From the NCBI RefSeq assembly GCF_056712565.1, contig NZ_CM160072.1: 64,000 bases of DNA; one strand, written 5' to 3'. Numbering within the stretch: position 1 is the stretch's first letter; each line of letters starts with the position of its first letter. The position numbers were made by a program. This document shows positions 21,001 through 24,000 of the stretch, in pieces.

Positions 21001-24000
21001 ACCGTAAGTGAGCAGCACCAAAATAAATCGGTACTTCCAATAACAGATAGTGAAAGCGTAAGGTGAAATATGAACATGAGAATGGAAGCAGATACATGAC
21101 TTCAGGACGACTTTTTCAGAAAACGAGCTAAGGGCGTTGGCTGACGCCCTTACTGTGGCATAAGCTCAGGCTCCGGATGCCGTTTTACAGGCTTCTCCTG
21201 CCATCCAGTAGACGTCCCGGCCCACGACTGCAACCATAATTACGTTGCCCGGAACCGTTATGCAACTTCGTTTCATATTTTACGAGATAACTGGCTCTGT
21301 TCCGGGCTTTCTGCAGCGCTCCCACATCACCACGCTTGATCCAGAGAACAGCGGCTTCACCCGGCTTTTTGTCTGAAGCCTTCCAGGTATCAGAACATCC
21401 ACCCGACAAAGGCGTGTCATCGGAAGAAGGGCGAGCATCAGACGATGCTGGTTTACGGGAAGGCGTCCACCTGGAAAAATGGACCAGGCCATCGCCTTGC
21501 CAGGGCTCAAGATGCAGGGCGCTGCACCATGCCTCCTGGATCATCGTCGCCAGCGAAGACGGTTCGCTGAAATCCCCGATCGAGCACCAGGTATCTTTGT
21601 TGAGCAGTAATATCACGTGATAATGTTTCCTGCCATACATCTTGCCGAACTCCCGGCACCAGAAATAACGCAGGCTGGTTGCATGCACACGCTGATTGGC
21701 ACATCTTTTTTTCCGCTGGTAAGCCTGAATTTTGGCTTTCAGGGATGCAAAAAAACGAGAAATCACCGCTGAATCCGGATCGGGATCCATGATGGTGACA
21801 GGCATATACTCAGGGAAACGTAAATCCACTCGGATTAACGAGACGGCACGGTGCTGCGCCAGGGCACTGTCGAGAAGGATGTCAAAACGGGATAACCAGT
21901 AAGCATTGTGTATTGGTTGATTCATGATGAGAGATCTCCGTTGATTTGGATTGACTTCACATCATTCATCAACGCGGTAAAACTTTACGGCATCCGGCAT
22001 TGAGCAATGCTACAACTCTCTGATTAAGAGTGATTGAAACGGAACAAACCATCCCGGAACGAAAAGATAATCCTGCACACAGCAGCAAAACACGCAACAA
22101 CAGCATGAATGGATTTAAAAACGACATGGACGACGAGAAAAGCCTGAAGGGAAAAGGATCCACAGAACATTCGAACAAAACACCAGAAACGCAACCAGAA
22201 CGCTTCCTGGCAATGCAAATCAACAACAACACCAAAACCTACAGCTTAACCACACAACTCAATCACAGAGCCGAATAGCGCACTTAAAACCTGTTTACAG
22301 ATAACCCTGCCACAAGAACAAAGTTCACCAATATCAGAATCGATTTTCTTATCCTGAAAACGTTACTTTTCAACACACCATAAAAACGATTAACCATCGA
22401 TAACGTAAATCTCATCTGAATCAAAACACCAGAACCAATCATCACGCTTTTTCTGAAAAGAGCCTTATGATAAAGATAATCACCTTGCACTGAGAAAAAA
22501 CACCAGGGCCAGTTAATCATCTCATCAATCTCATCGTCACAAAATCATCCATAGAACCATTTAACAAAATCGTCGCAAGCACACCGTAAATCACACCAGG
22601 TTATCTCAGTCGGATTTGCGTTTTTACGTAAAGACACTTGTCTCAGGTTAACGACTAAAAACACAAAAACTCAGAAAAGGTTAAACGCAACATCAGTAAA
22701 ATCGAATAGCAGATTGATTGCTTAAACAAAAAGGTTTTACAGCAGCTTTAAACTGATTTTAGCTAACGTAAAGATTTACTAAACTGGATGTGTTTCAGAC
22801 AAAGCAATGTGTACAGCAATGCTTAATGAAAACACTTATAGGGCTGTTTATGAAAACACGTGTATGTCTGGTAAAACACTTAGTAGAAAATACGTGTATA
22901 ACACTTACTGAAATGCTTAGTAAAAATACTTAGTAAAATATGTGTATATAGTATCATACCGACATTCTCAATATCTTCAGACTTCCATACATACTAGGTG
23001 TTAATTTTTCACTTTTACAGCCAGCATGGAGTTTTCTGTCCTAAAAACAGAGCAGATTTACTCTGGAATTATTTTTCTGCCCCCGTACTTCAGGCCCCAG
23101 AAAAGACAATCCGAAGCAAACCGTTTGTCAACCTCCATATCATCTTTTACCCCCGGAAAGTGATCGCGTTTTACAACCAGAATGACAGCCATACTGATTA
23201 TGTCGTCTCCCGGCCCCTTCACATATAACATGCATGTCTGTCATTGCTTACTGCTCTACATGACAGGATTTCACATACAGGATGCGCAGTCAGTGTTTTT
23301 ATCGCCACTATAACAGACAGATTACTGTCGCTTTTACTCTTCAGATTGTTAATCTGACCACAAGAACAGTCGAACAGTACAACGACACACCTAAGGAGGA
23401 TATGATCCGTAGTTGATAGCATGTTTTATTTTATTATGAATAGATCAAGAAATAGTTCTTGATATGTCTGGAATAGTTTTGTGAATAGTTCTAGAATATC
23501 CCCATAATCAGCTTTGAAGTGCTTGCAGGGTGATATTTTTATTGATTCCCTTGCATATACAACTGACATGTGATGGTGAAAATCACCAGAAAAGAAAACG
23601 ATTGAGGCGTAATCAGATGAAACAATATAAAGGCGGTTATAACGTGAATAGATATGACTGGAAAAATAAAACAACTGAGCATTTATTGAATGATAATAAT
23701 CTGGCAGATAATCACATACCTGAATGGATCAGAAAAAATGAAATTGCAGCATTCTGGTTCTGGTTAATTATGTCTCATACAGTTCCCGAAAAACTTAAAC
23801 TTAATAATGAATCTGAGTTCAATTCTGCCTTGAAGGGGGTGATCGTTATGAAGGATAACCCCATGACAATTATTCCTTCAAGTCATGAAACACGACTGAA
23901 TGTTATAGGGAAATGGATTAATGCGTTAATCCTTTATGGGGAAGCAGATCGGATTATCTCAATAATGCATCAAAACTGGCTGGGACTCGAAAAGAGAAAC

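What the first reader, a model, noticed from the sequence alone, without database searches (positions are those of the whole stretch)
22000..23530. 1.5-kb gene-free, A-rich segment with iteron-like direct repeats
Seen in sequence: no convincing ORF for about 1.5 kb; the plus strand is strongly A/C-biased with low-complexity stretches (caacaacaacacc, aaaaacacaaaaac), and 22853..22949 holds three copies of an aaaa(c/t)a(c/t)gtgtat unit interleaved with cttagtaaaa units. Inference: candidate binding-site array for a regulator or replication/partition-like protein, or a non-coding RNA locus; it lies upstream of the unknown gene pair and next to the YfjJ-like gene.
Basis: seen in the sequence. Interest (0 to 1): 0.5.

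Follow-up and report, generated by a model that had tools for sequence, protein, structure and literature searches.

The report
Repeat-array control region of an E. coli island
The gene-free stretch is the control region between two back-to-back operons of a common E. coli genomic-island backbone: its short repeats sit just upstream of a promoter-like motif that is conserved as far as Providencia, so they are most likely protein-binding sites, not an RNA gene or a classical plasmid origin.

Summary
Window 21926-23616 has no conserved ORF. Window 22000-22720 is the most A+C-rich stretch of the 64 kb. Seven same-strand AAAAYAC-core units lie at 22829-22947, far more than local shuffles give.

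The window is the pheV island of ST95 ExPEC. The segment lies between a leftward Gp2/YfjJ-like HUH-nuclease gene and the rightward operon (262-aa protein, YeeP-like GTPase, HTH-WYL regulator, antirestriction, CbtA).

The same layout recurs in at least six lineages, E. coli, Providencia and Brenneria among them:
- lineage-specific direct repeats;
- an 18-nt motif M1 (TATAGTATCATACCGACA, 22947-22964);
- 90-115 nt further on, a 13-nt motif M2 (ACTCTGGAATTAT, 23059-23071).

In E. coli islands the repeat number varies, giving 27 array variants, while M1-M2 spacing stays at 112-114 nt.

Best reading: an operator or activator array abutting the rightward promoter. No transcription or binding data exist. 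Nothing supports a structured RNA: no Rfam hit and no excess folding. Theta-type iteron-origin features are absent. The A/C-rich 0.8 kb drifts faster than synonymous sites, tolerates insertions, and looks like a lineage-specific spacer.

The main rival is a nick-and-bind origin for the adjacent HUH protein, which I could not exclude.

The parts
21185..21925 (-). Gp2/YfjJ-like HUH (Rep-type) protein gene. It is transcribed away from the segment.
   Evidence: Pfam YagK_YfjJ_C at 5.7e-34 and REP_ORF2-G2P at 5.8e-7. PHROG replication-initiation families match weakly. The HUH motif (H101, H103), Y213-x-x-K216-x-x-x-K220 and GCS are invariant or nearly so across the family. RefSeq annotates it as 'inovirus Gp2 family protein'.
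21926..22005 (-). Near-invariant block directly upstream of the Gp2-like start codon. Probably its promoter and 5' UTR.
   Evidence: Column identity is 0.96-0.99 here, against about 0.90 at third-codon positions of the gene itself. A TTTAC(A/C)/GGTGT..TAAAAA-like element about 50 nt from the ATG recurs in distant homologues. Promoter-like sites are predicted at this place in L019 and L026.
22006..22804 (+). A/C-rich, G-poor spacer with dispersed same-strand AAAACAC heptamers at 22087, 22177, 22423, 22497 and 22658. Three of them extend to AAAACACCAG.
   Evidence: Composition extreme. Heptamers enriched over local shuffles. Identity among islands is lower than at synonymous sites of the flanking genes. 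The segment is indel-rich and carries an insertion of about 0.9 kb holding a gene in L012, L013 and L017. The equivalent interval is much shorter in several distant lineages: M1 lies about 150-330 nt from the gp2 start in L019, L021, L022 and L018, but 811 nt in L026.
22805..22946 (+). Dense array of seven AAAAYAC-core units. Two alternating subtypes: AAAAYAC-TTAGTA and AAAAYAC-GTGTAT.
   Evidence: Among the 44 E. coli-type sequences where both the anchor and M1 could be placed there are 27 distinct array variants. The anchor-to-M1 distance is 61-195 nt in the 42 of these without a large insertion. Providencia has AAACACATA three times at the equivalent place.
22947..22964 (+). M1: the conserved 18-mer TATAGTATCATACCGACA (family consensus TATAKTAYCAWWCMGACA). 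It contains -10-like hexamers TATAGT and TATCAT.
   Evidence: Present in all E. coli variants with few changes. Also present in Providencia, L018 and L026, with variants in Brenneria and Morganellaceae. In Providencia the scan tool calls it the -10 of a promoter pointing at the GTPase gene.
22965..23058 (+). M1-M2 interval. The length is conserved but the sequence is not.
   Evidence: M1-to-M2 start distance is 112-114 nt in 54 E. coli-type loci and 88-95 nt in five distant lineages. No excess RNA or ssDNA structure.
23059..23071 (+). M2: the conserved 13-mer ACTCTGGAATTAT. Its function is unknown.
   Evidence: Exact or near-exact in E. coli, Providencia, L018, L026 and Brenneria, with a degenerate copy in Morganellaceae.
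23094..25381 (.). Swappable gene cassette inserted in the leader of the rightward operon. Here it holds a 262-aa gene (23617-24405, +) and a 317-aa gene (24402-25355, -), plus 0.5 kb of its own upstream DNA that falls inside the finding's coordinates.
   Evidence: Homology to islands with a different cassette stops at about 23093 and resumes at about 25382. The 262-aa protein is a distant relative of the roughly 320-aa first gene of the rightward operon in other lineages.
25382..25457 (+). Conserved proximal leader of the GTPase gene.
   Evidence: 91-98% identical between islands with different cassettes. Alignable by eye to the Providencia leader.
25458..27225 (+). YeeP/YfjP-like GTPase gene (25458-26342) and YfjR-like HTH-WYL regulator gene (26545-27225). 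The regulator is a candidate binder of the repeats.
   Evidence: Annotation. Alignment of YfjR-like proteins.

Best explanation
The segment is the divergent control region of a conserved island backbone. The Gp2-like operon, which in fuller copies also carries an AlpA-like gene, reads leftward. The operon of the 262-aa protein, GTPase, YfjR-like regulator, antirestriction protein, RadC and CbeA/CbtA reads rightward.

The functional core is about 270 bp (22805-23071). It has three parts:
- an array of same-orientation AAAAYAC-core repeats that serve as binding sites for a sequence-specific island-encoded regulator;
- the conserved M1 element, read as the -10 and start region of the rightward promoter, which the array abuts and partly overlaps;
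- a fixed-length leader ending in the conserved M2 motif.

Occupancy of the array would set the firing of this promoter, by repression or activation. Gain and loss of units by slippage or recombination would tune it. Gene cassettes have been inserted into the leader about 22 nt after M2.

The 0.8-kb A/C-rich stretch (22006-22804) is a lineage-specific expanded spacer between the proximal Gp2 promoter block (21926-22005) and the array. It may hold a few extra weak sites (AAAACACCAG three times) but is otherwise under little constraint.

Shown: anatomy, non-randomness of the repeats, conservation and synteny. Inferred: promoter activity, transcription direction, protein binding, and the identity of the binder.
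For: - Synteny. The divergent Gp2-like/GTPase arrangement is found in E. coli islands and in Providencia and Morganellaceae. Brenneria, Jinshanibacter and two unnamed lineages keep Gp2-like with AlpA on one side and DUF932/RadC-type genes on the other.
- Layout. 'Direct repeats, then M1, then about 90-115 nt, then M2' recurs in at least six lineages whose Gp2 proteins are 41-52% identical to the window's. The sequence between the motifs is not visibly similar.
- Chance. Inference: an exact 12-13-mer in an intergenic region under 1.4 kb is expected with probability of roughly 3e-4 per locus.
- Repeats. They are far above local chance and all on one strand.
- Array dynamics. Copy number and arrangement vary (27 variants) while M1 and the M1-M2 distance are fixed.
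- M1 as -10. Variation at the fifth hexamer position only (TATAGT, TATAAT, TATATT) fits a -10 hexamer. In Providencia the scan tool predicts TAAACA-18-TATATT at M1, pointing at the GTPase gene.
- Ancestral leader. Removing the cassette 23094-25381 would leave M2 about 100 nt from the GTPase ATG, as in Providencia.
- Weak lead to the binder. The window and Providencia YfjR-like proteins share the helix T(L/I)QRDFHQ and both have AAACAC repeats. L026 (TLYRDFHE) and L018 (TLRRDFRE) have different repeats. K-12 YfjR is reported by genomic SELEX to target its own operon (PMC8249747).
- Spacer. Its identity among islands averages 0.81, against 0.88-0.90 at third-codon positions of the flanking genes. 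It carries large insertions in some islands.
Against: - No transcript, transcription-start or binding data were found for this locus.
- The consensus scan finds no sigma-70 promoter at M1 in the window. The best hand-made fit (TTAGTA-17-TATCAT) has a poor -35.
- Promoter-like hits are not above chance in any scanned region.
- M1 is conserved over 18 contiguous bases, more than a -10 hexamer needs. M2 has no explanation in this model.
- The cassette gene at 23617 has its own promoter-like site and its own repeats. What M1 drives in E. coli is therefore unclear.
- ChIP-exo found no DNA binding for K-12 YfjR (PMC8464067).
- The helix-to-repeat correspondence rests on four lineages only.
- Morganellaceae loci have M1-like and M2-like motifs but no YfjR-like gene nearby.
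Confidence: 0.5

Rival explanations
1. The array, M1 and M2 together form the cis-acting origin of the adjacent Gp2/YfjJ-like HUH endonuclease. The lineage-specific repeats are its 'bind' locus. M1 (TATATTAC.../TATAGTAT...) or M2 is the conserved 'nic' locus. After excision the island would replicate by rolling circle, or be mobilised as single-stranded DNA, with the antirestriction side as the leading region.
For: - The neighbouring protein keeps the HUH motif, the catalytic Tyr-x-x-Lys motif and a Rep-type Pfam match across the family.
- The best, though non-significant, structural neighbours of its model are parvovirus, AAV, vientovirus and geminivirus Rep nuclease domains.
- From my own knowledge, not tested here: conserved core motifs next to lineage-specific short direct repeats, upstream of the rep gene, is the layout of rolling-circle double-strand origins (pMV158 bind and nic loci) and of geminivirus origins (iterons plus TAATATTAC).
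- M1 is conserved over 18 nt and M2 over 13 nt at a fixed distance, more than a promoter needs.
- Antirestriction, RadC and variable cassettes lie on one side, as beside oriTs in genomic islands (bioRxiv 10.64898/2026.01.13.699239).
Against: - No hairpin or inverted repeat is shared around M1 or M2, and ssDNA folding is no better than shuffles.
- K-12 islands with YfjJ and YagK, which keep the HUH motifs, have no M1 or M2.
- The E. coli Gp2-like gene shows relaxed constraint (amino-acid identity about equal to third-codon identity) and many truncated copies, yet the DNA motifs persist.
- The repeat core AAACAC is shared by E. coli and Providencia although their Gp2 proteins are only 48% identical. 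L018 and L026, with proteins as close or closer (52% and 51%), have different repeats.
- The fold match to solved HUH domains is not significant (E >= 0.05).
Confidence: 0.2
2. The whole 1.5 kb is decaying, selectively neutral island DNA. The repeats are a slippage-prone microsatellite-like tract and the conservation merely reflects recent common ancestry.
For: - Overall identity among E. coli islands is below that of synonymous sites in flanking genes.
- The segment tolerates an IS3 insertion and an insertion of about 0.9 kb.
- Array copy number is unstable.
- The flanking Gp2-like module is truncated in this window: ireA replaces the AlpA side.
Against: - M1, M2, their order and spacing, and a repeat tract at the same place are kept in genera where the intervening sequence shows no visible similarity.
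- Sub-blocks (21926-22005, M1, M2) are much better conserved than their surroundings.

This rival remains a good description of 22006-22804 only.
Confidence: 0.15
3. The segment encodes a non-coding RNA. Either a roughly 115-nt sRNA runs from M1 to a terminator at 23048-23075, or a long A/C-rich (+) or U/G-rich (-) transcript has a regulatory or sponge role.
For: - A terminator-like hairpin with a T-run lies at 23048-23075 on both strands.
- The conserved length of the M1-M2 interval could mark a transcript of fixed size.
- From general knowledge: a G-poor, A/C-rich RNA would be unstructured and protein-accessible.
Against: - No Rfam match at E <= 1 in 20000-26000 apart from a spurious miRNA hit outside the segment.
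- Folding z-scores are -0.08 (22957-23085), -1.2 (22000-22830, +) and -1.1 (- strand).
- In the second E. coli allele the hairpin is weakened by a 1-nt deletion without compensation (read by eye). Distant lineages have no U-tail after M2.
- The interval sequence is not conserved between genera.
Confidence: 0.08

Closest known systems
Tandem-repeat operators of ribbon-helix-helix or HTH regulators upstream of promoters (pSM19035 omega heptad arrays, ParG boxes, MetJ metboxes). Recalled from my own knowledge, not tested here.
   Same: Short 7-13 nt units, several copies, variable number and mixed subtypes, lying immediately upstream of and overlapping a promoter-like element. Candidate island-encoded DNA-binding proteins exist: a YfjR-like HTH-WYL protein, and a 262-aa protein with a weak RHH-like C-terminus.
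   Different: No binding has been shown. Unit spacing is irregular (11-25 nt). The binder is unknown. The RHH match is not significant (E = 0.14).
Double-strand origins of rolling-circle replicons (pMV158 nic and bind loci) and geminivirus origins (iterons plus the TAATATTAC nonanucleotide). The properties of these origins are recalled from my own knowledge.
   Same: A Rep-type HUH gene adjacent to lineage-specific direct repeats and a conserved AT-rich core (TATATTAC in L018, L019 and L026; TATAGTAT in E. coli).
   Different: No stem-loop presents the core. The repeat sequence does not follow Gp2 relatedness. The element is chromosomal, and no nicking or replication is known.
Iteron-type theta origins (pSC101, R6K, P1, F oriS) and P4 ori/crr. 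The defining features of these origins are recalled from my own knowledge.
   Same: Direct repeats in an AT-rich non-coding stretch next to a replication-type gene, in an island of P4-like ancestry (YfjI and AlpA relatives).
   Different: Units are 7-13 nt rather than 17-22 bp, and are not regularly phased. There are no DnaA boxes, IHF site or GATC cluster. P4's TGTTCACC iterons are absent. The adjacent protein is HUH-type, not RepA/pi-type.
oriT regions of relaxase-less genomic islands ('iOriTs', Ares-Arroyo et al. 2026, bioRxiv 10.64898/2026.01.13.699239)
   Same: A non-coding element in a pathogenicity-island backbone, flanked by antirestriction genes and a swappable cassette of unknown function in a place where related islands carry defence genes.
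   Different: That study defines oriTs by proximity to canonical relaxases. I could not check whether this sequence belongs to any of its families. No canonical relaxase or known oriT similarity was found here, and similar DNA turned up on only four plasmids.

Membership tests
Iteron-type (theta) replication origin | Tandem 17-22 bp iterons at regular, helically phased spacing | tested here: not met
   Units have a 7-nt core within 11-25 nt irregular spacings (starts at 22829, 22853, 22873, 22887, 22898, 22923, 22935). TRF gives period 13 at 67% match.
Iteron-type (theta) replication origin | DnaA boxes, an IHF site or Dam (GATC) clusters beside the iterons | tested here: not met
   Zero DnaA boxes (TTWTNCACA), zero IHF consensus sites, and 5 scattered GATC sites in 21926-23620.
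Iteron-type (theta) replication origin | Adjacent gene for an iteron-binding initiator of the RepA/pi type | tested here: not met
   The adjacent gene is YagK_YfjJ_C / REP_ORF2-G2P, an HUH type.
Rolling-circle double-strand origin or HUH nick site | Cognate HUH endonuclease with intact catalytic motifs encoded next to it | tested here: met
   HUH (H101, H103) and Y213..K216..K220 are conserved in the family. Pfam Rep-type match.
Rolling-circle double-strand origin or HUH nick site | Conserved nick sequence presented in, or next to, an inverted repeat or hairpin | tested here: inconclusive
   Conserved cores M1 and M2 exist. No shared hairpin was found, and ssDNA folding gives z of -0.35 and -0.91.
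Rolling-circle double-strand origin or HUH nick site | Site-specific nicking and covalent attachment by the protein | not testable with these tools
   Needs an in-vitro nicking assay.
Bacterial sigma-70 promoter with upstream operator array | -10 and -35 hexamers with 16-18 nt spacing | tested here: inconclusive
   The scan finds none at M1 in the window. It finds TAAACA-18-TATATT at M1 in Providencia. In the window, TTAGTA-17-TATCAT is a hand-made fit only. Variation in M1 fits a -10 hexamer.
Bacterial sigma-70 promoter with upstream operator array | Mapped transcription start, and regulator binding to the repeats | not testable with these tools
   No transcriptome or binding data were found.
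Structured non-coding RNA or known sRNA family | Match to a curated covariance model | tested here: not met
   The Rfam 15 permissive scan of 20000-26000 gives only a sub-threshold miRNA hit at 20386-20478.
Structured non-coding RNA or known sRNA family | Thermodynamic stability above background, or a conserved structure | tested here: not met
   Window z-scores run from -0.08 to -1.2. Lineage folds share no structure. The hairpin at 23048-23065 is not maintained.
Protein-coding gene | Open reading frame conserved among homologues | tested here: not met
   ORF 22030-22278 is broken in nine of eleven aligned homologues. The ATG of ORF 23026-23163 is lost in L006. No family hits.

The most novel reading that the evidence does not exclude
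The repeat array with M1 and M2 is the origin (bind and nic loci) of the conserved YfjJ/Gp2-like HUH endonuclease. That would make the very common 'CP4-57-like' GTPase, antirestriction and CbtA island backbone of Enterobacterales a rolling-circle-replicating or self-nicking mobilisable element. Its leading region would carry antirestriction genes, with a cassette hotspot directly downstream of the origin.
Probability: 0.2. Interest if true: 0.7.

Novelty: new member of a known kind. Interest (0 to 1): 0.38.

Why it matters
About a third of complete E. coli genomes (1878 of 5426) carry this non-coding region, in up to 8 copies each. It belongs to the backbone of pathogenicity and defence islands whose regulation and mobility are largely unknown.

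Defining a compact conserved core gives a concrete handle for three experiments:
- finding the switch that turns on the antirestriction and toxin-antitoxin operon;
- testing whether the HUH protein acts on this DNA;
- understanding why gene cassettes accumulate right after M2.

As a promoter-operator region it is ordinary biology. It would become important only if the origin reading proves true.

Tried and rejected
- **PapR sRNA lead.** The paper places PapR outside the pap island, so I dropped it.
- **Rfam.** The permissive scan found nothing in the segment.
- **K-12.** CP4-57 and CP4-6 have no homologue of the segment and no M1 or M2. K-12 transcription-start data therefore cannot be used.
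- **Other collections.** Plasmids gave only four E. coli hits and phages none. No more distant annotated relative exists there.
- **Genome-contig scan with the Gp2 protein.** It gave only two loci.
- **Metagenome scan with a family alignment.** It returned only E. coli-type loci. These were good for array variation but not for deeper phylogeny.
- **Ancient tandem duplication of the A/C-rich part.** Only one duplicated segment of about 34 nt was found (22172-22205 and 22417-22449, z = 3.8). There is no overall periodicity.
- **Terminator or sRNA reading of 23048-23075.** Rejected, because the hairpin is not conserved.
- **Small ORFs.** ORFs 22030-22278 and 23026-23163 were rejected.
- **Sigma-54 reading of M2, and M2 as a leftward -10.** Both checked by eye. 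The GC of the -12 element is absent, and the -35 side lies in variable DNA.
- **Defence-system annotation of the cassette genes.** No PADLOC, NCBIfam, PHROG or significant Pfam hit.
- **Literature on YfjJ, YagK, YeeP and YfjR.** It gave no data on this region.
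Full report
**Where the window comes from**

The window is 100% identical over the tested 1.75 kb to E. coli S88, APEC O1 and other ST95-type ExPEC chromosomes. In S88 it lies in the island that carries pap, pgt, ireA and, further on, the kps capsule genes.

The finding sits between two units:
- an 'inovirus Gp2 family' gene (21185-21925, - strand);
- a hypothetical gene pair (23617-24405 on +, 24402-25355 on -), followed by a YeeP/YfjP-like GTPase (25458-26342), an HTH regulator (26545-27225), DUF905, DUF932, antirestriction, RadC-like, CbeA and CbtA genes.

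**Checking the observation**

The sequence is as described.
- The composition bias is real but limited to about 22000-22720. There A is 40.6%, C 24.7%, G 14.7% and T 20.0%. This is the most A+C-rich 720-nt window of the 64 kb, about 5 sd from the mean. Window 22720-23530 is unskewed.
- The three AAAA(C/T)A(C/T)GTGTAT units (22853, 22887, 22935) and the interleaved CTTAGTA units exist. With one mismatch allowed there are seven AAAAYAC-core units between 22829 and 22941.
- Local dinucleotide-preserving shuffles of 22000-22960 give 1.28 AAAAYAC against 10 observed, 0.02 AYGTGTAT against 3, and 0.09 YTTAGTA against 3. A dispersed decamer, AAAACACCAG, occurs three times (22177, 22423, 22497) against 0.01 expected. 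All ten exact heptamers are on the + strand.
- The only ORF that PGAP sometimes annotates (22030/22105-22278) is broken by stops and frameshifts in nine of eleven aligned homologues. No small ORF matches any family.

**Distribution and constraint within E. coli**

Similar DNA occurs in 1878 of 5426 complete E. coli genomes, up to 8 times per genome. It is almost always chromosomal (2 places on plasmids) and mostly 80-90% identical.
- In every locus inspected it starts at the start codon of a Gp2-family gene. It runs rightward for about 0.94, 1.16, 1.33 or 1.7 kb, towards variable genes and then a GTPase gene.
- Among ten islands the non-coding stretch 21926-23075 is on average 81% identical. 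Third-codon positions are 90% identical in the Gp2 gene and 88% in the GTPase gene. As a whole it is therefore not under stronger constraint than synonymous sites.
- Conservation is patchy. Window 21926-22005 is nearly invariant. The blocks at about 22409-22445, 22660-22740 and 22776-22830, and above all 22945-23000, stand out. The repeat tract itself is full of indels.
- The spacer tolerates an IS3 insertion in strain BEN5202. It also tolerates an insertion of about 0.9 kb carrying a 531-bp gene in L012, L013 and L017.

**The decisive comparison: distant relatives**

The Gp2-like protein has relatives of 41-52% identity in other Enterobacterales.
- Their loci keep the same back-to-back arrangement. 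Gp2-like and AlpA lie on one side, often followed by defence genes. A roughly 320-aa protein, GTPase, HTH/WYL, antirestriction, DUF932 and RadC, or a subset of these, lie on the other.
- In Providencia the intergenic region is only 449 nt. Read outward from the gp2 start it is again A-rich and G-poor (G 7%). It contains AAACACATA three times, followed by TATATTACTATATCCGACAT. The window has the matching AAAAYAC units followed by TATAGTATCATACCGACAT.
- Two motifs recur in E. coli (both alleles), Providencia, L018 and L026, with recognisable variants in Brenneria (L021) and Morganellaceae (L022). M1 has the consensus TATAKTAYCAWWCMGACA (window 22947-22964). M2 is ACTCTGGARTTAT (window 23059-23071). 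They are always in this order and 88-115 nt apart, while the sequence between them shows no visible similarity.
- Each lineage has short direct repeats just upstream of M1, but of different sequence. One has five copies of a roughly 37-nt unit.
- Among the 80 E. coli-type metagenomic loci fetched, the 44 sequences (window included) where array anchor and M1 could both be placed hold 27 distinct arrays. They span 61-195 nt from a fixed anchor to M1 in the 42 without a large insertion. M1 shows only five close variants, and M1-M2 spacing is 112-114 nt.

This pattern is hard to explain by shared ancestry alone. It marks the 270-bp core 22805-23071 as functional DNA.

**What the core most likely is**

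M1 contains -10-like hexamers. Within the first one, the only variable position among lineages is the fifth (TATAGT, TATAAT, TATATT), which is how -10 elements vary.
- In Providencia the scan tool predicts a promoter, TAAACA-18-TATATT, exactly at M1 and pointing at the GTPase gene. It predicts a separate one next to the gp2 start.
- In the window no consensus promoter is found at M1. The best manual fit is TTAGTA-17-TATCAT.
- Islands with different cassettes lose homology at about 23093 and regain it at about 25382. Removing that interval leaves M2 about 100 nt from the GTPase ATG, the same distance as in Providencia. The ancestral layout is therefore promoter (M1), leader (with M2), then GTPase operon. 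Cassettes were inserted into the leader.
- I therefore read the repeats as an operator or activator array for the rightward promoter.

Who binds is unknown. A weak lead is the YfjR-like HTH-WYL protein.
- The window and Providencia proteins share the putative recognition helix T(L/I)QRDFHQ and share AAACAC repeats. L026 and L018 differ in both.
- K-12 YfjR is reported by genomic SELEX to target its own operon (PMC8249747), but ChIP-exo saw no binding (PMC8464067).
- Another candidate is the 262-aa first gene product. It is distantly related to the roughly 320-aa first gene of other lineages and has a non-significant RHH-like C-terminus.

**The A/C-rich 0.8 kb**

- It shows little sign of constraint as a whole: it drifts faster than synonymous sites, is indel-rich and tolerates insertions.
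- It is not a tandem duplication product. Only one segment of about 34 nt is duplicated.
- It has no excess RNA structure on either strand.
- M1 lies 147-326 nt from the gp2 start in L019, L021, L022 and L018, and 811 nt in L026.
- A-richness and G-poverty are shared with Providencia but not with Brenneria or Morganellaceae.
- I regard it as a lineage-specific expanded spacer that may carry a few extra weak sites. The cause of the strand bias remains unexplained.

**Rivals**

(a) *Origin for the HUH protein.* The Gp2-like protein matches YagK_YfjJ_C and REP_ORF2-G2P. It keeps HUH and a Tyr-x-x-Lys motif throughout the family. Its AlphaFold model has mean pLDDT 75. The model's best, but non-significant, PDB neighbours are viral Rep nuclease domains and a Prim-Pol domain. 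Lineage-specific repeats beside a conserved core upstream of a rep gene is, from my own knowledge, the layout of rolling-circle and geminivirus origins. A recent preprint shows that many islands carry unnoticed oriTs flanked by defence and anti-defence genes.

Against this rival:
- no shared hairpin;
- no M1 or M2 next to K-12 YfjJ and YagK;
- relaxed selection and frequent truncation of the E. coli gene;
- repeat type does not follow Gp2 relatedness.

I give it about 0.2.

(b) *Neutral decay.* This fits the spacer but not the core.

(c) *Non-coding RNA.* There is no Rfam hit, no excess stability, and the hairpin at 23048-23065 is not maintained.

(d) *Theta-type iteron origin.* Unit length and phasing, DnaA, IHF and GATC features, and initiator type all fail.

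**Verdict**

The finding is real. It is best described as a previously undescribed, but mechanistically ordinary, promoter-operator region of a very common island backbone, plus a drifting spacer and the start of a cassette. Its interest lies in the cross-genus conserved M1/M2 core next to an intact-looking HUH gene, which makes the origin hypothesis directly testable.

Noticed in passing
window 23094-25381: Cassette hotspot with sharp boundaries. Islands with a different gene content (a 407-aa gene on the - strand) lose homology about 22 nt after M2 and regain it 76 nt before the GTPase ATG. In related islands of other genera, the stretch after AlpA, on the other side of the Gp2-like gene, holds known defence genes (NACHT, KAP/QatB, TIR, Cap4).
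   Followed up: partly
window 23438-23495: Two to three copies of GAATAGTT(C/T)T lie just upstream of the cassette gene at 23617. They overlap a promoter-like site (TTGTGA-18-CATAAT, 23479-23508). This is probably the cassette's own operator and promoter, separate from the AAAAYAC array.
   Followed up: no
window 23617-24405: The 262-aa hypothetical protein is a distant relative (pairwise E = 1e-5) of the roughly 320-aa first gene of the rightward operon in other lineages. They share a W-F/I-R..E..AAFW motif. Its RHH-like C-terminus is weak (Pfam RHH_1, E = 0.14). The antisense 317-aa gene (24402-25355) has no family match at all.
   Followed up: partly
L012 and L013 about 5110-6000; L017 about 4770-3760 (equivalent to window about 22110): An insertion of about 0.9 kb carrying a 531-bp hypothetical gene (WP_000778604/5) sits inside the A/C-rich spacer in some islands.
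   Followed up: no
L002 3104-4409 (equivalent to window about 22000): In strain BEN5202 an IS3-family element is inserted between the near-invariant Gp2-proximal block and the spacer. The two matching pieces overlap by 5 query bases, which suggests a target duplication.
   Followed up: no
window 21185-21925 and homologues: The E. coli Gp2-like gene looks weakly constrained. Amino-acid identity (0.91) is about equal to third-codon identity (0.90), and the protein database holds many truncated versions. It also carries an insertion of about 40 residues, low-confidence in the model (residues 153-189), that the relatives from other genera lack.
   Followed up: partly
window 25394-25401: The conserved GTPase leader contains ATATTACC, the same octamer as the M1 core of L018 and L026 (TATATTACC). 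The cassette would then be bracketed by two M1-like cores. An octamer is expected about twice by chance in 64 kb, so this may mean nothing.
   Followed up: no
window 514-1080: A second YagK/YfjJ-domain gene (21% identical to the first in the family alignment) lies behind the pap operon, followed in S88 by hypothetical and HTH genes. Its upstream region (1081-1750) shows no similarity to the segment and no M1 or M2, and it abuts an IS3 element.
   Followed up: partly
window 22172-22205 and 22417-22449: A duplicated segment of about 34 nt, GAA(T)CAAAACACCAGAA(A)C(G)CAA.CA..ACGCTT (local alignment z = 3.8). The second copy is one of the better conserved blocks of the spacer in the 12-sequence alignment.
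   Followed up: partly
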